Origin: Candidatus Omnitrophota bacterium
GTDB taxonomy: Bacteria > Omnitrophota > Gorgyraeia > JAUYCX01
Direction: 5' to 3'
DNA: 64,000 bases
Assembly (NCBI GenBank): GCA_030692045.1
Contig: JAUYCX010000049.1
Location: 106,643 to 170,642, forward strand
Positions 4,190-37,811 of this stretch are shown here, in pieces. Positions within the stretch are counted from its first letter, which is position 1. Every line of letters starts with the position of its first letter. Below the pieces are notes generated by a model. The model was not told the origin of the DNA. It did not search any database and saw nothing but the letters and a program-made list of their open reading frames with translations. The position numbers were made by a program, and so were the translations under genes.

Positions 4190-4207
4190 AGAGGAAGAAG
4201 TATACCT

Positions 4208-7825: not shown

Positions 7826-7835
7826 GCCGCTAAAT

Positions 7836-8891
7836 ATGGAAAAAGATAAAAACAGAGCATTATTAAAAAATTCTAACAAAAAGAGAAATATAGTCGAAGC
7901 ATTAGTTATTTTCTTTTTATTTTTAAGCGCGGCTTTTTCAATTTCCTATTGGGCAATTGCTAAATACGATGTTTATAGTGACTATACTGCTTGCGGTGAT
8001 GCCCAACAATACATAAAAATGAGTAGGCATGATTATTCTAACGTACAGCAAAGATACAGAAATAGGCCATTAATGCCATTTATAGTTTCTTTGCTTAATG
8101 ACCATTTGAAAATTGATAACTTTTTAAATAAATATTATGAAAATGTAGAAAATAAGATTATCCAGTTAAATTTTGGTATTGTGAATATATTAGCCATTGC
8201 ACTAACGGCATTGTTGTTTTTTTATTACTGCATTTATTTAAATTTCTCTAAATGGGAAAGTTTAGTTGGTTCATTTCTCTTTTTAACTTCTTTTTTTGTG
8301 GTGACATATTTTACAATTCCTATGGTTGACTCCTTATCTGCATTTTTCATAATGGCTGGATTTTATGCGGTTTTGCGTAGTTCATTATTAGGTTTATCCT
8401 TATCATTTTTATTGGGCGTGTTTACGAAAGAGACAACCTTTGTTATTTTGCCTTTGATATTATTAGAGGAAAGAAGATTGTTTACAAAAAAACTTTTAGT
8501 CTGCTTACCGGGCATTATTTCTTATATTATTTTTGTTATCTTCTTTCAGGACAAAGCCGATGCTACTTTTTATATCTTCAAAGATGTTGTTAAAATATTA
8601 AAAGGGAATTTTATTCAAGTAAGTATGCGTGAATTTAGTTTCTACACCCTAATAGAAAATATACAGATATTTATGTTTCTTTGGATTTTATTTATATATG
8701 CGCTATTTAAGTGTAAGAAACCGGTTTTCTTAAAACGGGTAGTTTGGTTGCTTATTATTCCTGTTTTCACACCATTACTGCCAGGTGCAGTAGTGGGTAG
8801 AGCGGTTTTTTACCTTTTTCCGATTGTTATCCCATTTGCCTTATTGGCACTTAGAGATATTTTAGTCTCAAAAGTAAAAGAAAATTATTAA
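7836..8891 (+). CDS. Polytopic integral membrane protein (possible GT-C-type transferase or polymerase)
   Basis: About 350 aa with roughly 9-10 hydrophobic helices by eye. An acidic GDAQQY segment follows the first helix. I prefer the ATG at 7836 to the TTG at 7800, which overlaps the upstream gene. No soluble catalytic motif was recognised. Confidence 0.4.
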   Translation: MEKDKNRALLKNSNKKRNIVEALVIFFLFLSAAFSISYWAIAKYDVYSDYTACGDAQQYIKMSRHDYSNVQQRYRNRPLMPFIVSLLNDHLKIDNFLNKYYENVENKIIQLNFGIVNILAIALTALLFFYYCIYLNFSKWESLVGSFLFLTSFFVVTYFTIPMVDSLSAFFIMAGFYAVLRSSLLGLSLSFLLGVFTKETTFVILPLILLEERRLFTKKLLVCLPGIISYIIFVIFFQDKADATFYIFKDVVKILKGNFIQVSMREFSFYTLIENIQIFMFLWILFIYALFKCKKPVFLKRVVWLLIIPVFTPLLPGAVVGRAVFYLFPIVIPFALLALRDILVSKVKENY

Positions 8892-16102: not shown

Positions 16103-17065
16103 ATGAAAACGAATTCTAAAAAAACATTAATTTCAATTGTAGCTACCTTTTTCAACGAAGAAGGGAATCTAGGGCCCTTATATTCTAAGGTTAAAGAAGT
16201 TTTTGAGAATATTGACTATGAATTCGAATTAATCTTAATCGATGATGCTAGCGAAGATGATTCGCTTGAAATTGCCAGGAAATTGCGCCTAAAAGATCCT
16301 CGGGTAAAAATTTTGTCGCTTACCCGGCGTTTCGGACATCAGGCATCGCTATCTGCCGGCATAGATTATGCTGAGGGTGATGCAGTGATTTTAATGGATT
16401 CTGATTTACAGCATCCGCCCGAAGTCATTCCAGAACTGCTTAAGAAATGGCGCGAGGGTTATGAAAATGTCTATACTATTCGTAAGGTTACAAAGAACAA
16501 TCCCTTCTTTAAAAAGTTTTGTTCCGTTATTTTTTATCGAATTTTTCGCGCCTTAACAAAGATAGACCTGCCTATGAACAGCGCTGATTTTCGGCTGTTG
16601 GATAGAAAAGTAGTTTTGCAGCTTAGAAAAATCCAAGAAAGAAATCGTTTTTTAAGAGGAATCATTGCTTGGACAGGGTTTAGGTCGGTTGGCATAGATT
16701 ATCAAGATGCACCGCGGCATAGCGGAGAGATAAAGTATGGCTTCAAAAAGAAGCTTTTTTTAGCCATAGATGCCGTTACTTCTTTTAGCATCAAGCCTCT
16801 TTATTTAGGAGTTGTTATTGGTTTTATTTTTGCGGTTTTGGGTTTTGTCTATTTTGTCTATGTACTATATATTTCAATTTTTACTGATACAGATATCCCT
16901 GGTTGGGCCTCCGTAGCTTCCTTATTATCTATATTAGGCGGCATTCAATTAATTGTTGTGGGATTAATCGGAATTTATATAGGTAAAATTTTTGAGGAGG
17001 TTAAACAGCGCCCGCTATACTTAATTCGCTATGCTAAAGGTTTTGACAAAAAAATACTTGAGTAA
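16103..17065 (+). CDS. GT2 polyprenyl-phosphate glycosyltransferase (GtrB/ArnC-like)
   Basis: 320 aa. The series ISIVATFFNEEGNL .. LILIDDASEDDS .. ILMDSDLQHPPE, plus two C-terminal TM helices (LYLGVVIGFIFAVLGFV, LLSILGGIQLIVVGLIGIYI), is the architecture of bactoprenol-phosphate sugar synthases. Confidence 0.8.
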   Translation: MKTNSKKTLISIVATFFNEEGNLGPLYSKVKEVFENIDYEFELILIDDASEDDSLEIARKLRLKDPRVKILSLTRRFGHQASLSAGIDYAEGDAVILMDSDLQHPPEVIPELLKKWREGYENVYTIRKVTKNNPFFKKFCSVIFYRIFRALTKIDLPMNSADFRLLDRKVVLQLRKIQERNRFLRGIIAWTGFRSVGIDYQDAPRHSGEIKYGFKKKLFLAIDAVTSFSIKPLYLGVVIGFIFAVLGFVYFVYVLYISIFTDTDIPGWASVASLLSILGGIQLIVVGLIGIYIGKIFEEVKQRPLYLIRYAKGFDKKILE

Positions 17066-17090
17066 TAATTTAGAAGTATTAGAAAAGGTT

Positions 17091-17166
17091 TGAGTGAGTA
17101 AAGGTAAGAGAGTAAATAATAAAAAACATTAGTTTCAATTGTGGCCGTTTTTCAATAGTGAGCCCT
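17091..17166 (+). repeat. Decayed copy of the RBS/5' end of the GtrB-like GT2 gene (source 16084-16178)
   Basis: TGAGTGAGTA .. AAAAAACATTAgTTTCAATTGTgGC .. TTTTTCAA .. GCCCT at 17091-17166 parallels TGAGTGAGTA .. AAAAAACATTAaTTTCAATTGTaGC .. TTTTTCAA .. GCCCT at 16084-16178. The downstream copy has an in-frame stop and indels. Confidence 0.6.
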
Positions 17167-17208
17167 AAAAAATAAGAAGTAAAATAACAATGTGGATAGT
17201 TGAATATT

Positions 17209-18615
17209 ATGAGTATTAAGGTTCTGCTTCTAAATCCCATTAAGCCAGGGCAGGATTTTAATGTTAATGTAGACCCTGTTATTATAAGACATACCGGCGC
17301 GCAAACGAAAGCAGGTATTTTTTCTCCATTGGGGCTTATGTATATCGCATCTATTTTACGCAATAATAAGATAGAGGTAAAAATAATTGACCCTGTACCA
17401 GAGGGCCGTTCTTTCGAATCCGTACTTGATATAGGGAAAGAATTCGATATTATAATTGTGCCGCTTGCTACCTCAAACATAAGTGGAACAATTAAATTAT
17501 TTGATAATCTTAAAGGCAAGATACGAGTATTAATCGGTACGTACGCTACTGTGATATCCGACCAGTTGCTTCGGGAAAATAAATGTGACATTGTTGTAAA
17601 CGGTGAAGCAGAGATGACGCTACTGGAATTGTGCAAAGCGGAAGGCAGTCCGAAAGATATCATAGGGTTAAGTTATATAAAGGACTATAAGGTCATCAAA
17701 AACTCCGACAGGCCACTTATAGAAGATCTTGATTCATTGCCTTTTCCCGCCAGAGATCTTATCGATAATAATCTTTATTCAGATATTTTTTTTGGAAAAC
17801 CTACCGCATTAGTCTTAACTAGTCGGGGTTGTCCTTATGAATGTAGCTTTTGCTCTGTAAAGTTTGTATATGGAAGGCGTTTAAGAGTAAGAAGCGTTAA
17901 GAATATTATAGAAGAGCTAGAGGAGATAGTTTTTAAGTACTGTATAAAGAATATTTTTTTTATTGATGATATATTCCCAGTAAACGAAGATAGAGTTATC
18001 CAGATATGCGATGCGATAATTAAACATAATTTGAAAATAAGCTGGGTTTGCAACTGCCACATTAATCTTATTACCAAAAGAATGCTTGAGCATATGGAAA
18101 AAGCGGGATGCAAAGAAATCCGTTATGGCATAGAATCTGCCTCAGCCGATATACTTAAAGGAATGAAAAAGAATATAACTCCTCAACAAGCAATTAAGGT
18201 AATCCGAATGACAAAAGAAGTCGGCATTATTCCATCGGGTTTCTTTATGATTGGTTTTCCTGGGGAAACAGTTGAGATGATAAGAGATACGGTTAATTTT
18301 GCTAAAATGCTTAACCCACTTTATGCCGTATTTACTATAACGATACCTGCGCCGGGTTCTGAGCTTTATTACTCTTTGCCGTTTTCCAAGAGGACTGAGT
18401 TAGTTGATAAGTTTGACACAGTAAATTCAGATACAACAAATATATGCGGTATTGAGCCGTATATCCTCACAAGAGAGCTTAAAAGGGCATATATTTCTTT
18501 TTATTTATCTTGGCGCTTCTTTTGTAATTTTATGTCGCAAGCAATACAGAGGCCTTCTGCGGCAGTCTCCGTTTTACGAATGTTATTACAGGGAGGCATT
18601 AAGATTTTTAACTAA
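17209..18615 (+). CDS. B12-binding-domain radical SAM protein (paralogue 5)
   Basis: I prefer the ATG at 17209 (MSIKVLLLNP) to the TTG at 17200. Blocks LIGTYATVI and VNGEAEMTLLEL, linker LDSLPFPARDLI, cluster motif TSRGCPYECSFCSV. Confidence 0.88.
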   Translation: MSIKVLLLNPIKPGQDFNVNVDPVIIRHTGAQTKAGIFSPLGLMYIASILRNNKIEVKIIDPVPEGRSFESVLDIGKEFDIIIVPLATSNISGTIKLFDNLKGKIRVLIGTYATVISDQLLRENKCDIVVNGEAEMTLLELCKAEGSPKDIIGLSYIKDYKVIKNSDRPLIEDLDSLPFPARDLIDNNLYSDIFFGKPTALVLTSRGCPYECSFCSVKFVYGRRLRVRSVKNIIEELEEIVFKYCIKNIFFIDDIFPVNEDRVIQICDAIIKHNLKISWVCNCHINLITKRMLEHMEKAGCKEIRYGIESASADILKGMKKNITPQQAIKVIRMTKEVGIIPSGFFMIGFPGETVEMIRDTVNFAKMLNPLYAVFTITIPAPGSELYYSLPFSKRTELVDKFDTVNSDTTNICGIEPYILTRELKRAYISFYLSWRFFCNFMSQAIQRPSAAVSVLRMLLQGGIKIFN

Positions 18616-18625
18616 GCGACGTTAT

Positions 18626-19657
18626 ATGAAAAATAAGATTCTTTCGGTTTGTGTGGTAGGGGCAGGTTCCGTAGCGGTAAATCACATTAAAGCATATAAA
18701 AGAAATGCTCATGTGAAACTTGTAGCTGTTGCGGCTAGGGAAGAGGAAAAGCTGAAACGTTTCTGTCGTTATTTTAAGGTCAACAAATATTATACGGACT
18801 ACAGGAAAATGCTGGCAGCTGAAAAACCCGAAGCAGTAAGTGTTTGTACTCCTCCCCATACACATGCCCAGATTTCTATTGACGCTCTTAAGGCTGGTTG
18901 CCATGTATTATGCGAGAAGCCAATAGCTAATACATTATCCGAGGCCGATCGGATGATCGCCGTGTCAAAAGAGACAAATAGATTACTTCTGATAAGTTTT
19001 CCTTTAAGGTTTATGAAGGAATATATGCAGGTTAAGGAAGTTATTAAATCAGGAATTTTGGGGCAGGTGAAGATTATTTGGTTTAGACGAGGTAGGGGAT
19101 TGCCTAGTCAGGAGTGGTATTTGGATAAGAGTAAATCGGGAGGCGTTATGTGCGAATTAGCAATCCACGGGATCGATTTGATAAGGTGGCTATCTGATTC
19201 TCCTGTTATTTCAGTGACCGCTGAGGCGATAGACGGTGTTTATAACTTGGGTAAAGAAGATAATGCATGGATTATTGTTAAATTTAAAAATGGCGCTATG
19301 GGTGTAGTGGGTAGTTCTTATAGTTATCCCTTTTTCGAGGCGGATTTTGGTGTTTGCGGCGATAAAAAGGCATTAAGGTTATTCAGGGGAAAGACGCTTA
19401 TTGAAGATTTAAAAAAAAGACACACTTTATTATCAACTTTTATAAGGTATTGCATGGAATCATTTATATTGCCTTACAGAATTATTATGGAGAAGCCATT
19501 CGAGAGAGAGGTAGAACATTTTATCAATTGTACACAGGGTAAGTGTAATTCGCTTTTAAGCGCAGAGAATGCAAGAACAAATTTAGATATAATTCTTAAA
19601 GCATTAGATTCTGTAAATAATGGGAAAAGAATATATCTAAATGAAATCGGTAACTGA
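18626..19657 (+). CDS. Gfo/Idh/MocA-family NAD(P)-dependent oxidoreductase
   Basis: The N-terminal Rossmann block is KILSVCVVGAGSVAVNHIKAY, followed by VLCEKP. I prefer the ATG at 18626; the track start at 18452 would overlap the rSAM gene by more than 160 nt. Confidence 0.8.
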   Translation: MKNKILSVCVVGAGSVAVNHIKAYKRNAHVKLVAVAAREEEKLKRFCRYFKVNKYYTDYRKMLAAEKPEAVSVCTPPHTHAQISIDALKAGCHVLCEKPIANTLSEADRMIAVSKETNRLLLISFPLRFMKEYMQVKEVIKSGILGQVKIIWFRRGRGLPSQEWYLDKSKSGGVMCELAIHGIDLIRWLSDSPVISVTAEAIDGVYNLGKEDNAWIIVKFKNGAMGVVGSSYSYPFFEADFGVCGDKKALRLFRGKTLIEDLKKRHTLLSTFIRYCMESFILPYRIIMEKPFEREVEHFINCTQGKCNSLLSAENARTNLDIILKALDSVNNGKRIYLNEIGN

Positions 19658-19729
19658 TGTTGATATTGTCGGTGTTGTATTCATTTTTTTCATAAGTTCG
19701 CCTGATAGTTGATTTATGGTTCGAATAAT

Positions 19730-21001
19730 ATGAAACCATTATTAATCTGTTTCTTAATCTTTATTGCGGTTATTTCATCGGTATTATCGTGGCATAACAT
19801 GATTTATCAGGCAGACAGCCTTCCTTCTTTTTATAAAGACGAGGTTGCCAATGTTCAAGATGCTGTTTCTTTCTTTGCAAATGGAGTTTATAAGAATGAC
19901 AGGTATGGTTTGGCTTACACCAGTGGTATTGCAGTAACTTGGCCAAGTGCTATTGGTTGGTATATTGGCCACAATATGCTTGCATCCAGACTTGCATGCG
20001 CATTTTTTTCTTGGCTTTTTGGCATTTTGCTGGGATTTTGGTTCTTCAGGCGCAATAAATACACTTCGTTAGAGTCGATAACAGCTGCCGTTTGTCTTTG
20101 GGGATTGACTATTACTACACCATTTGCTCTGCCATACTGGTTTGGGTTTATGTATAATCTGGGAGAATTAAATACCATTATTTTGATTGTTTTTGGTCTC
20201 TTCTTACTTTCAAAACATCCAATGCTAAGTACATTTATTTTTGGCATTTCTTTATGGCAGGGAAAATTTATTTATTCTCCTTTAGTGTGGGCCATATTAT
20301 TAGGAAATATTTTCTCTCAGAAATTGTCTACGAAGAGAATGCTGACTAGTTTTTTGGTGCATATAGTTGTCTTTCTGTTGCCATTATTTATCTGGATGGG
20401 ATGGATTTTTTTGAGGTTTGATATTTTAATGATAAAACAGTGGTTGTTTGATGAGCTAAGTTGGTTGAACAGTAATAAAGCTGTTCATGCGCCAGCCGTA
20501 TCATCGATGAAATTTTCATTAGGAGCACTCAAAGAGCGACTAAGTTCGTCGGATTTTGAATGGGTAAGTTACACATTAGGGACTAAGATGAAAAATTTAT
20601 GGTTTTCATTTGGTGCTATAGGTGCAACACTTATGGGGTTGATTATGGCGAAGAAGAAAATATTGAGTATTTCAGATAGAGAAAAGTGGATAAGTATTAT
20701 GGCTAGTATCGGTATTGGGTTTTATAGTGTGTTGTATTTCTTTATTCGTCCATATATGTGGCAAAGGTATTTTCATCCGGCTATTTATACTGGTTTTGGA
20801 CTTTTTGTATTTTGGTTTTTAAAATGGATAAGAAAGAGCTCGCTTAATCTTAAACCTTTATTTTATGCAGCCGCATTTTTTTTAATCATTCTACAGGGAA
20901 TTAGTGCAGTTAAACATCCTATTCTCCAGCCTAAAACATCTTATGCTCGCTCATGTACGGATTTGTATAGCGCCAAATGCGATCCCACTCTGTACAAATG
21001 A
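19730..21001 (+). CDS. Polytopic membrane protein, GT-C-like (tentative)
   Basis: About 423 aa with more than 10 hydrophobic helices. An acidic FYKDEVANVQDA segment directly follows the first helix, where GT-C enzymes carry their catalytic D/E motif. I prefer the ATG at 19730 to the TTG at 19709. Confidence 0.4.
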   Translation: MKPLLICFLIFIAVISSVLSWHNMIYQADSLPSFYKDEVANVQDAVSFFANGVYKNDRYGLAYTSGIAVTWPSAIGWYIGHNMLASRLACAFFSWLFGILLGFWFFRRNKYTSLESITAAVCLWGLTITTPFALPYWFGFMYNLGELNTIILIVFGLFLLSKHPMLSTFIFGISLWQGKFIYSPLVWAILLGNIFSQKLSTKRMLTSFLVHIVVFLLPLFIWMGWIFLRFDILMIKQWLFDELSWLNSNKAVHAPAVSSMKFSLGALKERLSSSDFEWVSYTLGTKMKNLWFSFGAIGATLMGLIMAKKKILSISDREKWISIMASIGIGFYSVLYFFIRPYMWQRYFHPAIYTGFGLFVFWFLKWIRKSSLNLKPLFYAAAFFLIILQGISAVKHPILQPKTSYARSCTDLYSAKCDPTLYK

Positions 21002-21120: not shown

Positions 21121-22323
21121 ATGCATTTTAAAAGGAAATATTTATTTGTTATTTTATCAATTTTTTGGGGATGTATTCTAACCATCATAACGACGGAAAT
21201 CTTATTACATTTGATTGGTCCAGATTGGCTTAAACAACGAATGAAAGAAGTGGGTGTAAACAATATAACTGGTGCCGATCCTAAATCTTTTGGTTCAGAT
21301 AAAGGTTGGCCGATAGTACGGGACAAAGAAAAATTCATTAAATTCGTTCCATTTAGTCATTTCCATATTCGACACTATGAATATGATGTAGAGGCAAGTA
21401 TCGATAAATGGGGAGGAAGGCGTACGGCCCAATCTTGCAATAAACATAGCGGAGAAATTATCCCTTTTCTTGGAGATTCTTTTGTTTTTGGCGTAGGCGT
21501 AAAAGATGAAGAAACTTTCGTAAGTCTAATATCACAGAAATTGCCGTACTGTTTTATTAATTTAGGAACTCCTGGATCGTCTCTGCCTAGACAATTGGAT
21601 ATTATTGAGCAAAGACACCAAGAGTTAAATACTCCCTCCGTTTATATTTTTAATTTTTTTATTGGAAATGATTTTACCAATTTATTCGATAAAAATGTTT
21701 TAATAAATAGCAAGAATAAGCCCACAAAATTATTTCCTTTAAGGGGAAAGAAATCTACGCAAATGTTGGAAGCAGTTAATGATTTTGTTCGCCAGAATTC
21801 TCTATTGCGAAAGTGCTATCTTATTCAATTTATTAAGGCTAAATTACTCGTTCTTTACAATGATTTCTTGGCATCTAGGGGAGTGATTAAGCGTACAGAT
21901 GATGAAATATTCCATGTGATTCAGGACAGTAGGCATTTTAGGAAAATGCAGTATATTTTGGATGAAGAACTGAGGCGCTTAGATAAGTTGGCGAAAGAAT
22001 TAAATTTTAAAGCCGTTTTTATTCTAATACCTGATAGGCATCAGGTTGAAAAAGAACGCCTGTTGCTTAAATTGAAATATTATGGAATAAATAGGCAAAA
22101 CATAGATATTAGATTGCCTAATCGAGTTATGAAGGAAAAATTAAGCAACTTTAATATCCCTTTTATTGACCTTTTGGAGTGTTTAGAAGAAAAACATCGC
22201 ATCTCTCCAAATGTTCGTTTATATTATATTTTAGATAACCATTTAACAGCTAAAGGGCATAAAGCTGTAGCTGATTGTATCTTTTACCCGTTAAATTCCA
22301 TTATTTCTAAATATTGGAAATAG
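21121..22323 (+). CDS. Membrane-anchored SGNH-like hydrolase/acyltransferase (AlgJ/AlgX/DltD-like)
   Basis: 400 aa with an N-terminal anchor helix. Block I is IPFLGDSFVFGVG. The C-terminal LDNHLTAKGH resembles the D-x-H(W/L)T motif of AlgJ-type SGNH proteins. Confidence 0.6.
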   Translation: MHFKRKYLFVILSIFWGCILTIITTEILLHLIGPDWLKQRMKEVGVNNITGADPKSFGSDKGWPIVRDKEKFIKFVPFSHFHIRHYEYDVEASIDKWGGRRTAQSCNKHSGEIIPFLGDSFVFGVGVKDEETFVSLISQKLPYCFINLGTPGSSLPRQLDIIEQRHQELNTPSVYIFNFFIGNDFTNLFDKNVLINSKNKPTKLFPLRGKKSTQMLEAVNDFVRQNSLLRKCYLIQFIKAKLLVLYNDFLASRGVIKRTDDEIFHVIQDSRHFRKMQYILDEELRRLDKLAKELNFKAVFILIPDRHQVEKERLLLKLKYYGINRQNIDIRLPNRVMKEKLSNFNIPFIDLLECLEEKHRISPNVRLYYILDNHLTAKGHKAVADCIFYPLNSIISKYWK

Positions 22324-22354: not shown

Positions 22355-23056
22355 ATGAAAGTAGTAATTTTGTGCGGTGGAAAAGGTACTCGGATGGGCA
22401 ATGAAGAATTGCCCAAGGCGCTTTTTTTGGTTGGTGATAAGCCAATTCTATGGCATATTATGCGCATTTACGCTCATTACGGACTCAAGGATTTTGTATT
22501 ATGCTTAGGATACAAAGCTAACAATATAAGGAAGTATTTTTCAGATGTAAAAAGTTGGAAGATAAATTTTGTAGATACTGGATTAGGTACTAACACTGGC
22601 GGCAGAATAAGAATGATTAGAAATTATATCAATGATGACTATTTTTTGGCAACTTATGGAGACGGATTAGCAGATGTAAATATTCTTGATATAATAAAAT
22701 TTCACAAAAATCATAAGAAAATCGCAACCCTTACAGCGGTTAAGCCTCGTTCTCCATTTGGTATTGTAGGTATAGATTCCCATACAAAGGCAGTAACTCA
22801 TTTTGAAGAGAAACCCATTTCAGACCATTGGATAAATGGGGGTTTTTTTGTTTTTAATAAAGAAATTTTTAATTACTTAAGAGATGATGATGTGTTAGAA
22901 AGAGATACATTTAGAAGGTTAGTTAAAGATAAAAATTTAGTTGCATTTAAACACAATGGTTTTTGGGAATGTATGGATACATATAAAGATAATTTAAGGT
23001 TAAATGAACTTTGGTCAAATAACAATGCGCCTTGGGCAATTTGGAAAGGAAAATGA
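22355..23056 (+). CDS. rfbF: Glucose-1-phosphate cytidylyltransferase
   Basis: MKVVILCGGKGTRMG..LPKALFLVGDKPILWHIM .. ATYGDGLADVNI .. GFWECMDTYKDNLRLNELW..NAPWAIW is collinear with RfbF-type CDP-glucose pyrophosphorylases. Confidence 0.8.
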   Translation: MKVVILCGGKGTRMGNEELPKALFLVGDKPILWHIMRIYAHYGLKDFVLCLGYKANNIRKYFSDVKSWKINFVDTGLGTNTGGRIRMIRNYINDDYFLATYGDGLADVNILDIIKFHKNHKKIATLTAVKPRSPFGIVGIDSHTKAVTHFEEKPISDHWINGGFFVFNKEIFNYLRDDDVLERDTFRRLVKDKNLVAFKHNGFWECMDTYKDNLRLNELWSNNNAPWAIWKGK

Positions 23057-23059
23057 GCA

Positions 23060-24049
23060 ATGGATAATTTCTGGCGAAATAAACGCGTATTAATCACAGG
23101 AGCAAATGGCTTTTTAGGTTCGCATTTGTCAATTGCACTTTTAAAAAAAGAAGCTTTTATTATAGGTATTATCAAAGAAGATCCTAAATATGCTTATTTA
23201 AAAATTGCTTTAAATGAATTATTTAATCCAAAGATAAAATTAATAAAATCTGATATTGTCAATTTTAAATCACTTTCTAAAATATTTAAAGACCATAAAC
23301 CCGATATATGTATGCATGTTGCTGCACAGCCGATAGTAGGAATTGCAAATAAATCACCCCTGTCTACCTTTGAAGCTAATATCAAAGGGACCTGGAATAT
23401 TTTAGAGTTAGCGCGACTTTACAAAACAAAAGCAGTAATTGTTGCCTCAAGTGATAAGGCATATGGCGAGCATAAAAAATTGCCTTATAAAGAAGATGCA
23501 GCTCTTTTAGCTTTACACCCGTATGATGCTTCAAAAGCCTGCGCAGATATGCTTACTCGATGCTACGCTCATACCTATAGTTTAAATACGGCAGTTACAC
23601 GCTGTGCTAATATTTATGGGCCAGGAGATTTTAATTTTTCCAGAATTATACCAGACACTATACGTTTAGCTATTTTAAACCAAAATCCTGTTATCCGCAG
23701 TGACGGGACTCCTTTAAGAGATTATATTTTTATAAATGATATAGTTGATGGCTATCTTATTTTTTCGGAAAAGCTATATTGCAACAAGATTAAGCCAGGT
23801 GAGGTTTTTAATTTTGGAACAGGTAGACCCATTAGCGTTTTAAATTTGGTAAACAAAATTCTTCTAATAGCAAAAAAACAAAAATTAAAACCTAAAATCT
23901 TAAGTAAAGGAAAGATTAAAGGCGAAATCGATAAACAATATTTGTCAAGTAGCAAGGCAAAAGCACTGCTTGGCTGGAAATGTCGAAAATCTTTAACCGA
24001 AGGCTTAAAGATTACTTATACTTGGTATGCTAATCATTTGAAACATTAA
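23060..24049 (+). CDS. Extended SDR, CDP-glucose 4,6-dehydratase-like
   Basis: NFWRNKRVLITGANGFLGSHL, HVAAQPIVG, SSDKAYG, YDASKACAD (YxxxK) and NIYGPGDFNFSRIIPD parallel the RfbG pattern. It sits directly downstream of rfbF. The exact substrate cannot be determined from sequence. Confidence 0.6.
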   Translation: MDNFWRNKRVLITGANGFLGSHLSIALLKKEAFIIGIIKEDPKYAYLKIALNELFNPKIKLIKSDIVNFKSLSKIFKDHKPDICMHVAAQPIVGIANKSPLSTFEANIKGTWNILELARLYKTKAVIVASSDKAYGEHKKLPYKEDAALLALHPYDASKACADMLTRCYAHTYSLNTAVTRCANIYGPGDFNFSRIIPDTIRLAILNQNPVIRSDGTPLRDYIFINDIVDGYLIFSEKLYCNKIKPGEVFNFGTGRPISVLNLVNKILLIAKKQKLKPKILSKGKIKGEIDKQYLSSSKAKALLGWKCRKSLTEGLKITYTWYANHLKH

Positions 24050-32612: not shown

Positions 32613-33506
32613 GTGAGGTTGTTTATGGGAAGAATTTTTAAATCTTTGTTTCTAATTTTAAGGCCAAAACATTGGATTAAAAATCTTTTTATTTTTGCAG
32701 GACCGTTTTTTTCTCTCAATTTCTTTGTTTATGACAATATCAAAAAGCTTTCTTTGGGATTTATCTGCTGGTGTGGAATTTCCAGCGCAACTTATATTTT
32801 CAATGACATAATTGATAGAAAAGAGGATGCGTTTCATACACTTAAAAAAAGACGACCGATTTCTTCTGGCTTAATAAGCACAAACTTAGCATGGATTGTT
32901 TTTATACTTCTAAGTTTATTTTTCTTTTTAATTGCCTTCTGCATTAAGACCTCTTTTGGGTATCTAATTTTAGCTTATTTTTTAATTAATCTACTCTATT
33001 CATTATATTTAAAGCATGTTTTTATTTTAGATGTGATGTGCATTTCATTTGGTTTTATCTTAAGAGTAATTTCTGGAGCGATGCTGATAAATGTGGGATT
33101 TTCTGAATGGCTTATAATGTGTACCTTACTTCTTTCACTTTTACTTGGTTTTGGCAAGCGTCAAGAAGAGATAACTTCTTTAGAAAAGGTTGCAATGCAT
33201 CACCGTAGAGTTTTAAAAGATTATGACGTGGGTTTTTTGCAGCATATCCCATATGTTTTAGTATCTTCTACAATTGTTTGCTACATGCTTTATACAGTTT
33301 CGCAAGAGGCGGTTAGGAAATTTGGAACTAAAAATCTTATCTATACAACAGTTTTTGTGATTTATGGACTTTTTAGATATGTTTATGTAGTTAATGAAAA
33401 GAAAAAGGGTGCAGATCCAACTCAAATTATATTCCAGGATTTGCCCAGTGTAATAAACATCTTATTATGGATTATGGTTTCAGGGTTTATTATTTACCTA
33501 TTATAA
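32613..33506 (+). CDS. UbiA-superfamily polyprenyl-phosphate phosphoribosyltransferase-like (decaprenyl-phosphate 5-phosphoribosyltransferase family)
   Basis: LRPKHWIKNLFIFAGPFFS, SATYIFNDIIDRKEDAFHTLKKRRPISSG, YLKHVFILDVMCISFGFILRVISGA and GFGKRQEEI are collinear with the mycobacterial Rv3806c-type enzyme as I recall it (RPRQWVKN, NDxxDxxxDxxHPxKxxRP). About 8-9 TM helices. GTG start at 32613 or ATG at 32625. Confidence 0.75.
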   Translation: MRLFMGRIFKSLFLILRPKHWIKNLFIFAGPFFSLNFFVYDNIKKLSLGFICWCGISSATYIFNDIIDRKEDAFHTLKKRRPISSGLISTNLAWIVFILLSLFFFLIAFCIKTSFGYLILAYFLINLLYSLYLKHVFILDVMCISFGFILRVISGAMLINVGFSEWLIMCTLLLSLLLGFGKRQEEITSLEKVAMHHRRVLKDYDVGFLQHIPYVLVSSTIVCYMLYTVSQEAVRKFGTKNLIYTTVFVIYGLFRYVYVVNEKKKGADPTQIIFQDLPSVINILLWIMVSGFIIYLL

Positions 33507-33519
33507 AGGAGAATGAAAA

Positions 33520-34536
33520 ATGAGGATATTAATAACAGGTGTTCCTGGATGGTTAGGCGGGAGATTCTTAGAGATTTTAATTAAGGGGTTTGAAAATGAG
33601 GGCCCTATAAATGATTGGAAGATAAGATGCCTTGCTTTAGACGCCATAGACTTAAGTTTCATAAATAACCTTTCTCAATATAAGAAAATTGAGGTTATTT
33701 TGGGAGATATAACAAAAAAAGATACTTTAAAGAATGCAGTCAAAGATATAGATATAATTTTTCATATTGTGGGAATAATCCATCCTAAAAAAATAAAAGA
33801 ATTGTATCAAGTTAATACATTAGGAACTCTTAATTTAATTTCTGAAGCATTTTATGCAGGGGTTAAGAGATTTATTCATATAAGCAGTAATTCTGTGGCT
33901 GGAACTAATCTTAAGCGTCATATTTTAATGAAAGAAGAGGATGAACCAATGCCCTATTTGAATTATGGGTTAAGCAAATACTATGCAGAGTGCATTGTAA
34001 AAGGTTTTCAAGAATCTGGCAAGATTGAAACAGTGATACTGCGCCCTTGCTGGTTCTATGGGCCCAATCAGCCTAAAAGGCAGACAAAATTTTTTAAAAT
34101 GATTCAAAAAGGAAACCCAATTGTTTTTGGTAATGGATTAAATTTTAGAAGTATGAGTTATGTTGATAATACAATATTAGCAATGATTTTAGCTGTCGAG
34201 ACTAAGGAAGCTGTGGGACAAACCTATTGGATAGCAGACTCTCGTCCATATACTACATTGGAGATATATCAGACCGTTGCTGAGCTTCTTGAGGTAAAAA
34301 ACTTTAAACCCAAATTTCTTCCTAATTTTTCTTCGGAAATTTTTTTAATGGCGGATAAACTCTTTCAGTCATTAGGTATATATCAGACAGAAATCCATGT
34401 TGCTGGAGAGATGAATAAAGATATTGCCTGTAGTATTGATAAGGCACGCTTAGAACTCGGTTACGAACCAAAGATAGAACTAAGAGAAGGGATGCGGCGT
34501 TCCATAGAATGGTGCCGAAAACAAGGATTGTTGTAA
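33520..34536 (+). CDS. Extended SDR NAD-dependent epimerase/dehydratase/reductase
   Basis: MRILITGVPGWLGGRFLEIL and YGLSKYYAE (YxxxK). 338 aa. It starts 13 nt downstream of the UbiA-like gene. Confidence 0.75.
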   Translation: MRILITGVPGWLGGRFLEILIKGFENEGPINDWKIRCLALDAIDLSFINNLSQYKKIEVILGDITKKDTLKNAVKDIDIIFHIVGIIHPKKIKELYQVNTLGTLNLISEAFYAGVKRFIHISSNSVAGTNLKRHILMKEEDEPMPYLNYGLSKYYAECIVKGFQESGKIETVILRPCWFYGPNQPKRQTKFFKMIQKGNPIVFGNGLNFRSMSYVDNTILAMILAVETKEAVGQTYWIADSRPYTTLEIYQTVAELLEVKNFKPKFLPNFSSEIFLMADKLFQSLGIYQTEIHVAGEMNKDIACSIDKARLELGYEPKIELREGMRRSIEWCRKQGLL

Positions 34537-34539
34537 GTA

Positions 34540-35937: not shown

Positions 35938-35942
35938 GAAAA

Positions 35943-37811
35943 TTGAGAAAATTAATGGAAATCAAGAATAAAATTACTCTTGTCTTGGTTTTTATCTTAT
36001 TTTTTGGTTTTCTGCTACGTTTATGGGGTATAGGATTTGGTCTTCCTTATCTATCACATCCTGACGAAACAAGGGTTATTTTAGATACGCTTTCAATGGG
36101 CCATAGATTTAGTTTAATACCCCAGCGTCCGGATTATTCACTGCTTTATAGATATTTGCTTTTAGGATTATATGGTTGTTATTTTGTCGTGGGAAAATTG
36201 CTTGGCATATTTAGAGATTTGAATGATTTTGCATTTAAATTTATGGTTAATCCCACAGCCATCTATATTATTTCACGAATGGTTAGTGTAATCTTCGGAA
36301 CTCTAACTGGACTATTTTCTTATTTATTAGCAAAAAGGTTCTTTGATAAAACAACCGCTTTTGTAACAATGTTATTTGTTCTTTTTGAATTTCAGCTGCT
36401 TCAACATTCACAATGGGCAATATATCCAGCCGTATTTAGCTTTACTACATTGTTAGCTATTTATTCTATGTTTAGAGTTATTAAAGAACCTTCTTTAAAA
36501 AATTTTATTTTGATGGGAGTTTTTAATGGTATTTCGATTTCAACTCAGAATCATGGAATATTTTTACTGCCACCCCTAGCGATAACAGTTTTATTTCATT
36601 TTTTTGATAACAAAAATATTTTAGACAGAAAAGTTTTCTTTAAGAATTATTCTGCTTTAATTTTGAGTTTGGTAATTTTTAGTCTTTTAGGAAATTTTTA
36701 TTGGTTTTTTATCTTTAAAAAAACTTTTCTTAAATACTCTGAACTTATAGGAGTAACTAAGGTTGGCTTTGCCTCGAAGCCGCCTTATGCTAATAATATT
36801 TTCAGTTTGGTTTTTTGGTTTGTTAGTGAGCTTATAAGACAAGATGGGATCTTGGGAATTTTTTTAGTATTAGGTTTAATCTATTCAATAATTAAGCATA
36901 CTAAATTCGATATTGTTTTTTTAGCTTATGTAGTTACCAATTTATTTATATTCTCGGGTTGGGGTTTTAGGTTGCTACATGATATGTTAGGGGTAATGCC
37001 TATAATTTGTGTTTTTGGGGCTCGAGCGCTGGTTGACTTATTAAAAAAAATAAGATTTAAGGAGGCTTCGATAGGCATGGTCGCTTGTTTAATTTCCCTT
37101 CCATTGATATGCGATTCAGTTATTGTTGACATAAAAAAGAACAATCTTGATACAAGGCAACTAACAAAAGATTGGATTGAGCAAAATATTCCCAGTACCC
37201 AAAAGATAGCTATTGATTGGTACGTCTTTAGCGTAGCGTTAAATAGCGACATTCCATTGTATTTTAGAAATCCTGTTGCAAGAAAATATTATGAAGAGAA
37301 TATTCCTGATAAGATAAAAGAGTTATATGTTGATTATCTGAAAAATAAACCTGTTTATGACATAATCGAGATTATGGAATCAAGTGATAAGCCACACTGG
37401 CCTTCTGATATGCCACTTGAAGCCGTGAAAGAAGCTAATAGGCATGCCTTCTATAGAGACATATACAGCAAATTTAATTTTAGGTCTTTAGAATATCTCA
37501 AGAAAGAAAACGTTAAATATATCATTATTTCAAGTTACCTTTATGGCTTCTTTTTGTTAGATTCAGACTATAATAAAAGAGACCTCTTCAATCCCTTTAT
37601 AAAAGATAGGCCTTGGATAAATTTCAGTCAGTCAAACTATTATATAGATGATAAGAGATATGGATTATTATATTTTATAAGTCGAGATGCAAGAAATTTT
37701 TATCTTCCTCTTTTAAAAAATGAGCTTAAAGGCGTAGTCTTGATAAAAGAATTTAAACCGGATAACTGGCATTTAGGACCGATAATTAAAATTTATAAAG
37801 TAACACGATGA
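35943..37811 (+). CDS. GT-C glycosyltransferase, ArnT/PMT-like (GT39/GT83-type)
   Basis: 622 aa. GLPYLSHPDETRVILDTLSM follows the first helix and matches the PDETRY-type acidic loop motif of ArnT-like enzymes. There are about 11-13 TM helices and then a ~220-aa soluble C-terminal domain. TTG start at 35943 or ATG at 35955. Confidence 0.7.
   Translation: MRKLMEIKNKITLVLVFILFFGFLLRLWGIGFGLPYLSHPDETRVILDTLSMGHRFSLIPQRPDYSLLYRYLLLGLYGCYFVVGKLLGIFRDLNDFAFKFMVNPTAIYIISRMVSVIFGTLTGLFSYLLAKRFFDKTTAFVTMLFVLFEFQLLQHSQWAIYPAVFSFTTLLAIYSMFRVIKEPSLKNFILMGVFNGISISTQNHGIFLLPPLAITVLFHFFDNKNILDRKVFFKNYSALILSLVIFSLLGNFYWFFIFKKTFLKYSELIGVTKVGFASKPPYANNIFSLVFWFVSELIRQDGILGIFLVLGLIYSIIKHTKFDIVFLAYVVTNLFIFSGWGFRLLHDMLGVMPIICVFGARALVDLLKKIRFKEASIGMVACLISLPLICDSVIVDIKKNNLDTRQLTKDWIEQNIPSTQKIAIDWYVFSVALNSDIPLYFRNPVARKYYEENIPDKIKELYVDYLKNKPVYDIIEIMESSDKPHWPSDMPLEAVKEANRHAFYRDIYSKFNFRSLEYLKKENVKYIIISSYLYGFFLLDSDYNKRDLFNPFIKDRPWINFSQSNYYIDDKRYGLLYFISRDARNFYLPLLKNELKGVVLIKEFKPDNWHLGPIIKIYKVTR

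What the first reader, a model, noticed from the sequence alone, without database searches (positions are those of the whole stretch)
16103..21001. Second copy of the same gene order: GtrB/ArnC-like Und-P-sugar synthase - B12-rSAM - Gfo/Idh/MocA oxidoreductase - polytopic GT-C-like protein
The GT2 at 16103 has the DSDLQHPPE motif and two C-terminal TM helices, as in bactoprenol-phosphate glucose or L-Ara4N synthases. It is followed by rSAM paralogue 5, an NAD(P) oxidoreductase, and a ~423-aa multi-helix membrane protein with a KDE motif right after helix 1.

This is the same order of functions as the 32613-37811 cassette: lipid-P-sugar synthase, redox enzyme, B12-rSAM, membrane transferase. 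The proteins filling each role are unrelated between the two cassettes. The same design arising twice supports the idea that the rSAM substrates are lipid-phosphate monosaccharides.
Basis: partly seen in the sequence, partly recalled or inferred. Interest (0 to 1): 0.7.

Follow-up and report, generated by a model that had tools for sequence, protein, structure and literature searches.

The report
Sugar-tailoring radical enzyme pair inside periplasmic glycosylation cassette
Four neighbouring genes in a giant cell-surface sugar locus are really two separately inherited gene pairs, one that loads a sugar onto a lipid carrier and transfers it outside the cell using a previously unclassified membrane enzyme, and one radical-enzyme-plus-oxidoreductase pair that probably reshapes that sugar by unknown chemistry.

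Summary
All four genes are present as described. They are a GtrB-like GT2, a B12-domain radical SAM (rSAM), a Gfo/Idh/MocA oxidoreductase, and a 423-aa polytopic protein.

- **Membrane protein.** It matches no Pfam, NCBIfam or PDB sequence. Its AlphaFold model (pLDDT 84.7) resembles only GT-C enzymes, best ALG12 at TM 0.52. D37 is nearly invariant and E38 invariant after helix 1.
- **Two modules, not one unit.**
  - GT2 and the membrane protein co-evolve and are adjacent in all 10 homologous loci that retain upstream sequence. The genes inserted beside them vary: none, YdjC, YdjC plus formyltransferase plus methyltransferase, or here rSAM plus Gfo.
  - rSAM and Gfo orthologues are adjacent in 6 of 6 independent loci, against 0 of 80 paralogue loci. 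They recur beside other synthase-like GT2s and unrelated GT-C proteins, and beside glucose-1-phosphate cytidylyltransferase and CDP-glucose-dehydratase-like genes.
The recurring design is real. The "same order" claim is wrong, because the two middle genes are swapped. The "unrelated proteins" claim is only partly right.
- **Open question.** Whether the rSAM acts on lipid-phosphate sugar or CDP-sugar is unresolved. I slightly favour the nucleotide stage.

This is a new variant of known three-component periplasmic glycosylation systems.

The parts
16103..17065 (+). GtrB/ArnC-type GT2 polyprenyl-phosphate sugar synthase (320 aa; DSD...QHPPE motif; two C-terminal TM helices)
   Evidence: PF00535 at 2e-31. 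Full-length match to GtrB 5ekp at 2e-79 and to ArnC at 1e-40. NCBIfam PgfS at 4e-76, below its cutoff. It is 63-81% identical to the GT2 next to the membrane-protein homologue in 9 of the 10 homologous loci that retain upstream sequence, and 40% in the tenth, L098.
17209..18615 (+). B12-binding-domain radical SAM enzyme (468 aa, CX3CX2C at residue 208), HpnJ/AprD4-like; first half of a conserved rSAM-Gfo pair
   Evidence: PF02310 plus PF04055. Best NCBIfam match is HpnJ at 206 bits, against a cutoff of 578. Best PDB match is AprD4 6fd2 at 7e-24. The orthologue group is 42-52% identical, then identity drops to 36%. It is 23-35% identical to the seven other B12-domain rSAMs in the window.
18626..19657 (+). 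Gfo/Idh/MocA NAD(P) sugar oxidoreductase (343 aa), obligate partner of the rSAM (10-bp gap)
   Evidence: PF01408, PF22725 and PF02894. UDP-GlcNAc 3-dehydrogenase-like and IolG-like, both below cutoff. Orthologues at 42-47% identity sit beside the rSAM orthologue in 6 of 6 independent loci, against 0 of 80 paralogue loci.
19730..21001 (+). Polytopic membrane protein (423 aa), founding a small Pfam-less GT-C-like family; predicted periplasmic transferase using the lipid-phosphate sugar
   Evidence: No Pfam, NCBIfam or PDB sequence match. The family has 17 close homologues and 140 clusters among 1.84 billion representatives. AlphaFold model has pLDDT 84.7 and pTM 0.86. Foldseek finds ALG12 (TM 0.52, probability 1.00), ArnT, ALG6 and EmbC. 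E38, R87, E146 and R346 are invariant and D37 is nearly invariant.
21121..22323 (+). GDSL/SGNH-like protein following the membrane protein; the neighbourhood is conserved in the closest relative; role uncertain, possibly glycan O-acyl handling
   Evidence: Weak Pfam GDSL match. GDSL-like genes follow the homologue in L005.
22355..23056 (+). Glucose-1-phosphate cytidylyltransferase-like gene (short, 233 aa); candidate supplier of the CDP-sugar tailored by the rSAM-Gfo pair
   Evidence: TIGR02623 at 263 bits, cutoff 300. It is 42-48% identical to cytidylyltransferases beside the rSAM-Gfo orthologues in L008, L009 and L010. Comparable genes occur in only 1 of 80 paralogue loci.
23060..24049 (+). 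CDP-glucose 4,6-dehydratase-like SDR; candidate second step of the CDP-sugar route
   Evidence: TIGR02622 at 204 bits, cutoff 278. It is 43% identical to the SDR in the L010 operon of cytidylyltransferase, SDR, SDR, Gfo, rSAM.
32613..33506 (+). Comparator cassette 2: UbiA-type polyprenyl-phosphate phosphoribosyltransferase
   Evidence: NF008977 at 267 bits, above its cutoff of 234. PF01040.
33520..34536 (+). Comparator cassette 2: SDR epimerase/reductase
   Evidence: PF01370 and PF01073. Analogous to the auxiliary SDR epimerase described in PMC11127046.
34540..35937 (+). Comparator cassette 2: B12-domain rSAM paralogue (31% identical to the cassette 1 rSAM)
35943..37811 (+). Comparator cassette 2: PMT_2-type GT-C glycosyltransferase
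   Evidence: PF13231 at 2e-11 and PF02366 at 3e-9.

Best explanation
The region is a composite of two independently inherited two-gene modules that together decorate a cell-surface glycan from the periplasmic side.

**Module A: GT2 16103-17065 plus membrane protein 19730-21001.** This is a Gtr/Arn/Lgm-type system. The GtrB-like GT2 loads a monosaccharide onto undecaprenyl phosphate at the cytoplasmic face. After flipping, the new GT-C-fold protein transfers the sugar to LPS or O-antigen, using the conserved D37-E38 loop.

**Module B: rSAM 17209-18615 plus Gfo 18626-19657.** This is a cytoplasmic sugar-tailoring pair. I consider it most likely that it acts before lipid loading, on a CDP-hexose made by the nearby cytidylyltransferase and 4,6-dehydratase-like genes (22355-24049). 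The chemistry would resemble AprD4/AprD3: radical H-abstraction with dehydration or rearrangement by the rSAM, followed by NAD(P)H reduction of the ketone by Gfo. The product would be an unusual deoxy or rearranged sugar, which the GT2 and GT-C then install.

**What is shown and what is inferred**
- Shown: family assignments, the GT-C-like fold, the modular inheritance, and the gene associations.
- Inferred: the stage at which the rSAM acts, its chemistry, and the sugar and acceptor identities.
For: **Module A**
- GT2 is a full-length GtrB/ArnC homologue.
- The membrane protein model matches only GT-C structures at non-trivial TM scores. Acidic residues after TM1 are invariant.
- GT2 and the membrane protein are adjacent in all 10 homologous loci that retain upstream sequence, and their identities co-vary: 81/75, 75/72 and 68/62%.
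- Sibling cassettes carry YdjC, the family of the Und-P-GalNAc deacetylase NaxD.

**Module B**
- Gfo orthologues are adjacent to rSAM orthologues in 6 of 6 loci against 0 of 80 paralogue loci, Fisher p = 2e-9.
- The rSAM-to-Gfo gap is about 10 bp, against about 143 bp and 72 bp on the flanks.
- The closest relative has Gfo upstream of the GT2.

**Nucleotide-sugar stage**
- Glucose-1-phosphate cytidylyltransferase occurs in 4 of 6 loci against 1 of 80, p = 3e-5. It scores above the NCBIfam cutoff in L008 and L010.
- The L010 operon runs cytidylyltransferase, SDR, SDR, Gfo, rSAM.
- L102 has the pair among Leloir GTs, with no GT-C.

**AprD4-like chemistry**
- The top PDB match is AprD4.
- AprD4 works with the reductase AprD3.

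**Link to GT-C**
- The polytopic partner in L009, L010 and L104 folds as STT3/PglB/AftA-like GT-C.
- The short GT2s beside the pair match only DPMS, GtrB and ArnC in the PDB.
Against: - The window's GT2 is 75% identical to the GT2 of a GT2-YdjC-membrane cassette (L105). That cassette's sugar should be an N-acetylhexosamine, so a switch to a CDP-deoxyhexose donor would be surprising.
- To my knowledge, no polyprenyl-phosphate sugar synthase that uses CDP-sugars has been described.
- The rSAM's best family match is HpnJ, which acts on a lipid-anchored glucosamine.
- In the window, the pair sits exactly where YdjC sits in sibling cassettes.
- The GT-C call rests on a model with Foldseek E-values no better than 1e-2.
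- The window's cytidylyltransferase is short and scores below its family cutoff.
- Whether AprD3 belongs to the Gfo/Idh/MocA family could not be checked.
Confidence: 0.4

Rival explanations
1. The GT2 first makes an ordinary undecaprenyl-phosphate sugar, for example Und-P-HexNAc. The rSAM and Gfo then tailor it at the cytoplasmic membrane face while it is lipid-linked, before flipping and GT-C transfer. They would fill the role that YdjC, formyltransferase and methyltransferase fill in sibling cassettes.
For: - The pair is inserted between GT2 and GT-C, in the slot occupied by YdjC in L105, L004 and L006.
- GT2 stays 63-81% identical in 9 of the 10 homologous cassettes whatever tailoring genes are present, which suggests an unchanged donor.
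- The best rSAM family match is HpnJ, which acts after HpnI (GT2) and HpnK (YdjC) on a lipid-anchored sugar.
- There are precedents for tailoring lipid-phosphate sugars. They include NaxD, DprE1/E2, and the SDR epimerase acting on undP-Ribf.
- In cassette 2 the sugar comes from PRPP, so no nucleotide-sugar stage exists there.
- In L104 the rSAM stop codon overlaps the GT-C start codon.
Against: - The closest relative, L005, has Gfo upstream of the GT2, so the slot is not conserved.
- CDP-glucose genes are strongly co-localised with the pair and sit in one operon with it in L010.
- L102 has the pair without any GT-C or synthase-type GT2.
- The GT2s beside rSAM-Gfo orthologues are not orthologous to each other, at 20-40% identity.
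- Both enzymes lack membrane segments.
Confidence: 0.3
2. The adjacency is incidental. The rSAM-Gfo pair, with the CDP-glucose genes, makes a nucleotide sugar used by a cytoplasmic Leloir glycosyltransferase of the O-unit. The GT2 and GT-C independently add a different, untailored sugar. The four genes would then not form one pathway.
For: - The window is a single 64-kb co-directional glycan locus crowded with GTs and tailoring genes, so adjacency carries little weight.
- GT2 plus membrane protein function without rSAM or Gfo in other genomes, for example L093.
- rSAM-Gfo occurs without a GT-C in L102.
- The order is rearranged between the window and L005.
Against: - The pair sits beside a synthase-like GT2 and/or a large polytopic protein in 5 of 6 independent loci. 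This includes tight operons: L008 has rSAM-Gfo-GT2-membrane, and L104 has Gfo-rSAM-GT-C.
- In L009, L010 and L104 that polytopic protein is a PglB-like GT-C that carries Pfam's short DUF6798 domain.
- In both the window and L005, Gfo stays directly beside the GT2-membrane pair.
Confidence: 0.2
3. The 423-aa membrane protein is not a glycosyltransferase. It could be a flippase, a polymerase or ligase-like protein, or an acyltransferase that only superficially resembles GT-C enzymes.
For: - No sequence family match exists.
- Foldseek E-values are weak, best 1.3e-2, with TM 0.52.
- The cassette has no recognisable flippase.
Against: - Every structural hit with TM above 0.3 is a GT-C enzyme. Transporter hits have TM of about 0.15.
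- The near-invariant D37 and invariant E38 directly after TM1 match the GT-C catalytic loop position.
- The strict pairing with a GtrB-type synthase, with or without YdjC, mirrors the Arn, Lgm and Nax systems.
Confidence: 0.07

Closest known systems
GtrA/GtrB/GtrC O-antigen glucosylation (Shigella and Salmonella phages) and its GtrB structure (Synechocystis sll0501, PDB 5ekp)
   Same: The GT2 is a full-length GtrB homologue (E 2e-79) with the same DxD...QHPPE region and two C-terminal TM helices. It is paired with a polytopic GT-C-like transferase inside an LPS locus.
   Different: There is no GtrA-type flippase gene in the cassette. The transferase belongs to no described GT-C sequence family. 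Two extra cytoplasmic tailoring enzymes, the rSAM and Gfo, are embedded between the two genes.
ArnC/ArnD/ArnT, LgmA/LgmC/LgmB and FlmF2/NaxD/FlmK lipid A aminosugar systems
   Same: They share the logic of synthase, tailoring on the lipid-phosphate sugar, then GT-C. Sibling cassettes of the membrane-protein family have GT2-YdjC-membrane, which is exactly the Lgm/Nax composition. ArnC matches the GT2 at 1e-40.
   Different: The window lacks YdjC and has the rSAM plus Gfo instead. The membrane protein is much smaller than ArnT (423 aa, with no periplasmic domain) and is not detectably related in sequence. The acceptor is unknown.
Three-component pentofuranose systems: UbiA-type PPPRS, MATE flippase, GT136 GT-C, and an auxiliary SDR epimerase (Kelly et al. 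2024, PMC11127046); also mycobacterial DPPRS with DprE1/E2 and Emb/Aft
   Same: Cassette 2 (32613-37811) has the UbiA synthase above its family cutoff, an SDR and a GT-C. This is the same architecture, with redox tailoring of a lipid-phosphate sugar.
   Different: Cassette 2 additionally contains a B12-domain rSAM, which that paper does not mention (0 occurrences of 'radical'). Its GT-C is PMT_2-type. Cassette 1 uses a GT2 synthase rather than UbiA.
HpnI (GT2) / HpnK (YdjC) / HpnJ (B12-domain rSAM) hopanoid cyclitol-ether pathway
   Same: HpnJ is the best-scoring curated family for the rSAM (E 8e-61). That pathway combines a GT2, a YdjC deacetylase and an rSAM acting on a lipid-anchored hexosamine.
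   Different: The score is far below the HpnJ cutoff (206 against 578 bits). There are no hopanoid genes. A Gfo partner is not part of the Hpn pathway. The carrier here would be polyprenyl phosphate or CDP.
AprD4 (rSAM 1,2-diol dehydratase) with AprD3 (NADPH reductase): C3'-deoxygenation in apramycin biosynthesis
   Same: AprD4 is the closest solved structure to the rSAM (6fd2, E 7e-24). It is an obligate two-enzyme pair of rSAM plus nicotinamide-dependent reductase acting on a sugar ring.
   Different: The AprD4 family score is below its cutoff (106 against 500 bits). The substrates there are aminoglycoside pseudosaccharides. Homology between Gfo and AprD3 was not tested.
CDP-3,6-dideoxyhexose pathway (RfbF/DdhA, RfbG/DdhB, E1/DdhC, E3/DdhD, then an SDR)
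   Same: Cytidylyltransferase and 4,6-dehydratase-like genes accompany the rSAM-Gfo pair. In L010 the five-gene operon has the same length and logic, with rSAM and Gfo where E1 and E3 would be.
   Different: No E1 or E3 homologue lies beside the pair. The dehydratase-like SDR is below its family cutoff. The parallel is positional only.

Membership tests
Polyprenyl-phosphate glycosyltransferase (GtrB/ArnC/DPMS-type GT2) | GT-A GT2 catalytic domain with a DxD motif and the conserved (D/S)DLQHPPE region | tested here: met
   PF00535 at 2e-31. DSDLQHPPE at residue 99.
Polyprenyl-phosphate glycosyltransferase (GtrB/ArnC/DPMS-type GT2) | Full-length similarity to structurally characterised members, including the C-terminal two-helix membrane anchor | tested here: met
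   GtrB 5ekp matches residues 9-314 at 2e-79, and ArnC at 1e-40. Hydrophobic helices at about 225-255 and 271-289.
Polyprenyl-phosphate glycosyltransferase (GtrB/ArnC/DPMS-type GT2) | Transfers sugar from a nucleotide sugar to undecaprenyl phosphate | not testable with these tools
   Needs a membrane assay with labelled UDP- or CDP-sugars.
GT-C fold glycosyltransferases | Polytopic protein with about 10-13 TM helices whose 3D fold matches solved GT-C enzymes | tested here: met
   The model has pLDDT 84.7 and pTM 0.86. Foldseek finds ALG12 (TM 0.52, probability 1.00), ArnT (0.98), ALG6 (0.94) and EmbC (0.92). All other hits have TM of about 0.15. No hit has E of 1e-3 or better, so the support is moderate.
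GT-C fold glycosyltransferases | Conserved acidic residue(s) in the first extracytoplasmic loop right after TM1 | tested here: met
   D37-E38 are invariant in 17 close homologues. E38 is invariant and D37 at least 90% conserved in 64 diverse members.
GT-C fold glycosyltransferases | Membership of a described GT-C sequence family (Pfam PMT, PMT_2, STT3 and others; or a PDB relative) | tested here: not met
   No Pfam, NCBIfam or PDB hit for the protein, for 10 distant relatives, or for the family profile. There is no profile similarity to the PglB-like GT-C family of L104, the one carrying Pfam's short DUF6798 domain.
GT-C fold glycosyltransferases | Genomic pairing with a polyprenyl-phosphate sugar synthase | tested here: met
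   A GtrB-like GT2 is adjacent or within the same cassette in L001-L006, L093-L095, L098 and L105.
Cobalamin-dependent (class B) radical SAM enzymes | N-terminal B12-binding domain plus a radical SAM core with CX3CX2C | tested here: met
   PF02310 at 37.9 bits (cutoff 32.1) and PF04055 at 89.8 bits. CPYECSFC at residue 208.
Cobalamin-dependent (class B) radical SAM enzymes | Actually binds cobalamin and transfers methyl (AprD4 has the domain but does not use cobalamin) | not testable with these tools
   Needs cofactor analysis and the 5'-dA to SAH product ratio.
HpnJ equivalog (TIGR03471) | Score above the curated cutoff | tested here: not met
   206.3 bits against a cutoff of 577.6.
AprD4 family diol dehydratase (NF033070) | Score above the curated cutoff | tested here: not met
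   106.5 bits against a cutoff of 500, although AprD4 is the best PDB hit.
AprD4/AprD3-type rSAM-reductase pair | Obligate adjacent NAD(P)-dependent partner | tested here: met
   A Gfo orthologue is adjacent in 6 of 6 orthologue loci against 0 of 80 paralogue loci.
AprD4/AprD3-type rSAM-reductase pair | The partner is homologous to AprD3 | not tested
The paper that would state its family (PMC4943880) was not held.
Gfo/Idh/MocA oxidoreductases | N-terminal Rossmann NAD(P) domain, C-terminal alpha/beta domain, and an EKP motif | tested here: met
   PF01408 at 1.8e-30, PF22725 at 7e-23 and PF02894 at 2.7e-18. EKP is present.
Three-component periplasmic glycosylation system (synthase + flippase + GT-C) | A dedicated flippase (GtrA, ArnE/F, SMR or MATE) in the cassette | tested here: inconclusive
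   No flippase gene lies within 16103-21001. A Wzx/MATE-like gene at 10435-11766, and Wzx-like genes next to homologous cassettes in L105, L005 and L008, are candidates but remain unassigned.

The most novel reading that the evidence does not exclude
A B12-domain radical SAM enzyme and its Gfo/Idh/MocA partner remodel a monosaccharide while it is attached to undecaprenyl phosphate. The remodelling would be deoxygenation, C-methylation or HpnJ-like ring contraction. The product would be a lipid-linked donor of a sugar, or carbasugar, that never exists as a nucleotide sugar. A previously unclassified, minimal (423 aa) GT-C family then installs it on LPS. This would be the first radical SAM tailoring step on a polyprenyl-phosphate sugar, and a general design in uncultured anaerobes.
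Probability: 0.3. Interest if true: 0.8.

Novelty: new variant of a known kind. Interest (0 to 1): 0.6.

Why it matters
- **Scope of known systems.** Periplasmic three-component glycosylation (Gtr, Arn, Lgm, and the recently described pentofuranose systems) drives surface antigen diversity and antimicrobial-peptide resistance. Known tailoring of the lipid-linked donor is limited to deacylation and epimerisation.
- **The rSAM-Gfo pair.** A conserved radical SAM plus oxidoreductase pair is wired to such systems in several uncultured lineages. That points to an undescribed sugar, either deoxy, C-methyl or rearranged. Its chemistry could be a radical alternative to the E1/E3 route to dideoxyhexoses, or the first radical tailoring of a polyprenyl-phosphate sugar.
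- **The membrane protein.** It defines a small GT-C-like family that no database recognises. Adding it to GT-C catalogues would improve annotation of LPS loci.
- **Testability.** Both questions can be tested directly with a four- to six-gene heterologous construct.

Tried and rejected
1. **Sequence searches for the membrane protein.** Searches against Pfam, NCBIfam and PDB found nothing. This covered the single sequence, 10 distant relatives, and a 64-sequence profile. Only the fold comparison was informative.
2. **Genome scan for rSAM orthologues.** It returned only paralogues at 37% identity or less. I used these as a background set instead.
3. **Metagenome scan with the broad alignment.** The 64-sequence membrane-protein alignment had no conserved stretch and failed. 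I repeated the scan with the 17 close sequences.
4. **Profile comparison of the two GT-C families.** Comparing the membrane-protein family with the PglB-like GT-C family from L104 showed no relation, at probability 0.6%. The two GT-C partners of the rSAM-Gfo pair are therefore not detectably homologous.
5. **Literature.**
   - No paper combined "cobalamin-dependent radical SAM" with "undecaprenyl phosphate".
   - Searches for rSAMs in O-antigen clusters found nothing relevant.
   - The AprD4/AprD3 primary paper was not held, so the protein family of AprD3 stays unverified.
6. **Recent duplication of the rSAMs.** I rejected the idea that the eight B12-domain rSAMs are recent duplicates. They share only 23-35% identity.
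7. **Antisense ORF.** I treated the 194-aa ORF at 17079-17663 as spurious. It overlaps the rSAM start, and nothing supported it.

Full report
**Setting**

The 64-kb window is one co-directional glycan (LPS/O-antigen-type) locus at about 33% GC. It is bounded by GT9 heptosyltransferases. It contains a Wzx-like flippase, two Wzy_C proteins, many glycosyltransferases, five class I methyltransferases, eight B12-binding-domain radical SAM (rSAM) genes and one SPASM rSAM.

**Checking the observation**

The four genes are present as described.
- **GT2, 16103-17065.** It has PF00535. DSDLQHPPE starts at residue 99, and there are two C-terminal hydrophobic helices. It aligns over its full length to the GtrB structure 5ekp (E 2e-79) and to ArnC (1e-40).
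- **rSAM.** The real ATG is at 17209, giving 468 aa. It carries PF02310 and PF04055, with CPYECSFC at residue 208.
- **Oxidoreductase, 18626-19657.** It is a canonical Gfo/Idh/MocA protein with an EKP motif.
- **Membrane protein, 19730-21001.** It is 423 aa, with K36-D37-E38 directly after helix 1.

Two statements in the finding are inaccurate.
- The gene order differs between the cassettes. Cassette 1 is synthase, rSAM, redox, membrane. Cassette 2 is UbiA, SDR, rSAM, PMT_2.
- The proteins are not all unrelated. The two rSAMs are paralogues at 31% identity. Cassette 2's membrane protein has the Pfam PMT_2/PMT domains of GT-C enzymes and cassette 1's is GT-C-like by fold, so both are probably GT-C.

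**The membrane protein is a new GT-C-like family**

- It has no Pfam, NCBIfam or PDB sequence match.
- Only 17 homologues at 47-75% identity exist among 5.8 billion clustered proteins.
- A profile search of 1.84 billion representatives found only 140 clusters. Ten distant members also lack Pfam hits, and the family profile finds nothing in the PDB.
- An AlphaFold model built from the 17-sequence alignment is confident (pLDDT 84.7, pTM 0.86) and almost entirely helical.
- Foldseek against the PDB gave these hits:
  - ALG12: probability 1.00, TM 0.52
  - ArnT: 0.98
  - ALG6: 0.94
  - EmbC: 0.92
  - PIG-U and GPI mannosyltransferase I
- All transporter hits have TM of about 0.15. E-values are weak, best 1.3e-2, so the fold call is moderate rather than strong.
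- D37-E38 are invariant among close homologues. In 64 diverse members, E38, R87, E146 and R346 are invariant and D37 is nearly so. An acidic pair right after TM1 is the position of the catalytic loop in GT-C enzymes (established knowledge).

**The four genes are two modules**

*Module A: GT2 plus membrane protein.*
- In every homologous locus that retains upstream sequence, a GtrB-like GT2 sits in the same cassette. In nine of the ten it is 63-81% identical to the window's GT2, and in L098 it is a more divergent 40%.
- GT2 and membrane-protein identities co-vary: 81/75, 75/72 and 68/62%. They follow lineage, not cassette type.
- The genes placed beside or between them vary:

| Cassette arrangement | Loci |
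|---|---|
| GT2-membrane, nothing between | L093 |
| GT2-YdjC-membrane | L105 |
| GT2-YdjC-formyltransferase-methyltransferase-membrane | L004, L006 |
| GT2-methyltransferase-membrane-YdjC-formyltransferase | L001, L002, L003, L094, L095 |
| Gfo-GT2-membrane | L005 (closest relative; contig cut inside Gfo, which is 83% identical) |
| GT2-rSAM-Gfo-membrane | window |

- YdjC is the family of NaxD, which deacetylates undecaprenyl-phosphate-GalNAc before a GT-C adds galactosamine to lipid A. The family context is therefore that of Arn/Lgm/Nax-type periplasmic glycosylation.

*Module B: rSAM plus Gfo.*
- The rSAM has a clear orthologue group at 42-52% identity, followed by a drop to 36%.
- In all six independent loci examined, an orthologous Gfo is directly adjacent. 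These are the window, L008, L009, L010 (the same as L011 and L012), L102 (the same as L103) and L104. The Gfo proteins are 38-67% identical to each other and 42-47% identical to the window's.
- None of 80 loci holding paralogous B12-domain rSAMs has such a Gfo, Fisher p = 2e-9.
- In the window, the rSAM-to-Gfo gap is about 10 bp. The flanking gaps are about 143 bp and 72 bp.

**What accompanies the rSAM-Gfo pair elsewhere**

*Synthase-like GT2s and large polytopic proteins.*
- L008 has rSAM-Gfo-GT2 (241 aa)-806-aa membrane protein.
- L009, L010 and L104 have a membrane protein of about 615 aa. It carries Pfam's short DUF6798 domain (61 profile positions) near its C-terminus. In L104 its start overlaps the rSAM stop.
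- I modelled this roughly 615-aa protein (pLDDT 90.5). It is clearly GT-C, matching STT3, PglB, DPY19 and AftA at probability 1.00 and E down to 1e-4.
- It shows no profile similarity to the window's family.
- The short GT2s next to it match only DPMS, GtrB and ArnC in the PDB.
- Among more distant paralogue loci, the combination of rSAM, GtrB-like GT2 and PMT_2-type or other polytopic protein recurs in L014, L016, L053 and L058. In L075, a paralogue of the cassette 2 rSAM sits near a UbiA gene.

*CDP-glucose genes.*
- The nucleotidyltransferase near the pair is glucose-1-phosphate cytidylyltransferase. It scores 434 bits in L008 and 357 in L010, both above the cutoff of 300. The window's copy scores 263 bits and is short.
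- The neighbouring SDR is CDP-glucose 4,6-dehydratase-like.
- Such cytidylyltransferases, at 41-52% mutual identity, occur in 4 of 6 orthologue loci against 1 of 80 paralogue loci, p = 3e-5.
- L010 has the operon cytidylyltransferase, SDR, SDR, Gfo, rSAM.
- L102 has the pair among Leloir GTs, with no GT-C in view.

**Mechanism**

*Shown.*
- The family assignments, the fold, the modularity and the associations.
- Because rSAM enzymes need cytoplasmic SAM and reductant (established knowledge), tailoring must precede flipping.

*Inferred.* The stage and the chemistry.
- **For the nucleotide stage:** the CDP-gene linkage, the operon order in L010 and L008, and L102.
- **For the lipid stage:**
  - The pair occupies the YdjC slot.
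  - The GT2 is 75% identical to that of a YdjC-type cassette, which suggests an unchanged donor.
  - The best curated family is HpnJ, at 206 bits and below its cutoff. HpnJ acts after a GT2 and a YdjC on a lipid-anchored glucosamine.
  - Cassette 2's sugar derives from PRPP and has no nucleotide stage.
- **On the chemistry:** the best solved relative is AprD4. AprD4 is an rSAM diol dehydratase that needs the reductase AprD3. The obligate Gfo partner therefore favours a dehydration or rearrangement followed by reduction. A simple methylation fits less well, because known B12-dependent rSAM methylases need no such partner (my knowledge).

*Probabilities.*

| Model | Probability |
|---|---|
| rSAM-Gfo act at the nucleotide-sugar stage and feed the GT2 and GT-C | 0.40 |
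| rSAM-Gfo act at the lipid-phosphate stage | 0.30 |
| The two modules are unrelated pathways | 0.20 |
| The membrane protein is not a transferase | 0.07 |

**Comparison with known systems and novelty**

- The cassette works like the Gtr, Arn, Lgm and Nax systems and the three-component pentofuranose systems (PMC11127046). In the pentofuranose systems an SDR epimerase already tailors undP-ribofuranose.
- That paper does not mention radical enzymes. No paper in the library links cobalamin-dependent rSAMs with undecaprenyl phosphate.
- Three things are new:
  - a Pfam-less, minimal GT-C-like family;
  - a strictly conserved rSAM-Gfo pair tied to synthase-type GT2 and GT-C systems and to CDP-glucose genes;
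  - their fusion into one cassette here.
- I rate it a new variant of a known kind, with interest 0.6.

Noticed in passing
window 1140-7825, 17209-18615, 34540-35937, 46133-50092: One glycan locus holds eight B12-binding-domain radical SAM genes plus a SPASM radical SAM gene at 49052-50092. The eight share only 23-35% identity, so they are old paralogues rather than recent duplicates. Only the one at 17209 has a Gfo partner.
   Followed up: partly
window 32613-37811: Cassette 2 matches the published three-component pentofuranose system with an auxiliary SDR epimerase. Its UbiA-type phosphoribosyltransferase scores above the NCBIfam cutoff (267 against 234 bits). It carries an extra B12-domain rSAM. 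Because the sugar comes from PRPP, that rSAM could only act on a lipid-linked pentose if it belongs to the pathway. One archaeal locus, L075, has a 39%-identical rSAM about 3 kb from a UbiA gene.
   Followed up: partly
window 22355-23056: The glucose-1-phosphate cytidylyltransferase-like gene is short, at 233 aa against 255-266 aa. It matches the family model in two stretches, with about 25 residues missing, and scores below the cutoff (263 against 300 bits). It may be functional, divergent or decaying.
   Followed up: no
window 50041-51915: A 624-aa protein with about 9 predicted TM helices has no Pfam or NCBIfam match. It lies directly after three radical SAM genes. It may be another unclassified polytopic transferase.
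   Followed up: no
window 4208-4969: A 253-aa GT2 is sandwiched between two B12-domain rSAM genes (2675-4189 and 4950-6377). It is 34% identical to the short GT2 next to the rSAM-Gfo pair in L009.
   Followed up: no
window 7800-8891: A 363-aa protein with about 12 TM helices has no Pfam hit. It has only a weak NCBIfam match to the AZOBR_p60025 cell-surface glycopolymer formation family (27 bits, cutoff 150).
   Followed up: no
window 51912-54145: A carbamoyltransferase (605 aa) is followed by a small SxtJ-family protein. This suggests carbamoylation of the glycan.
   Followed up: no
L009 9317-10296 (minus strand): The CDP-glucose-dehydratase-like gene next to the cytidylyltransferase is split into three ORFs that are 41-59% identical to window 23060-24049. 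It is either a pseudogene or a product of assembly frameshifts.
   Followed up: no
L104 2888-2891; In L104 the start of the PglB-like GT-C (the roughly 615-aa protein with Pfam's short DUF6798 domain) overlaps the rSAM stop by 4 bp. Several such proteins and rSAM orthologues report identical longest-contig lengths (22094, 22128, 24684, 28251 and 8213 bp).
   Followed up: partly
window 21121-22323 and L005 2780-5654: GDSL/SGNH-like (AlgX-like) genes follow the membrane protein both in the window and in its closest relative. They may be a conserved fifth component, for example for O-acyl handling.
   Followed up: partly
window 17079-17663 (minus strand): A 194-aa antisense ORF overlaps the GT2-rSAM intergenic region and the rSAM start. 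Nothing supports it, and it is probably spurious.
   Followed up: no
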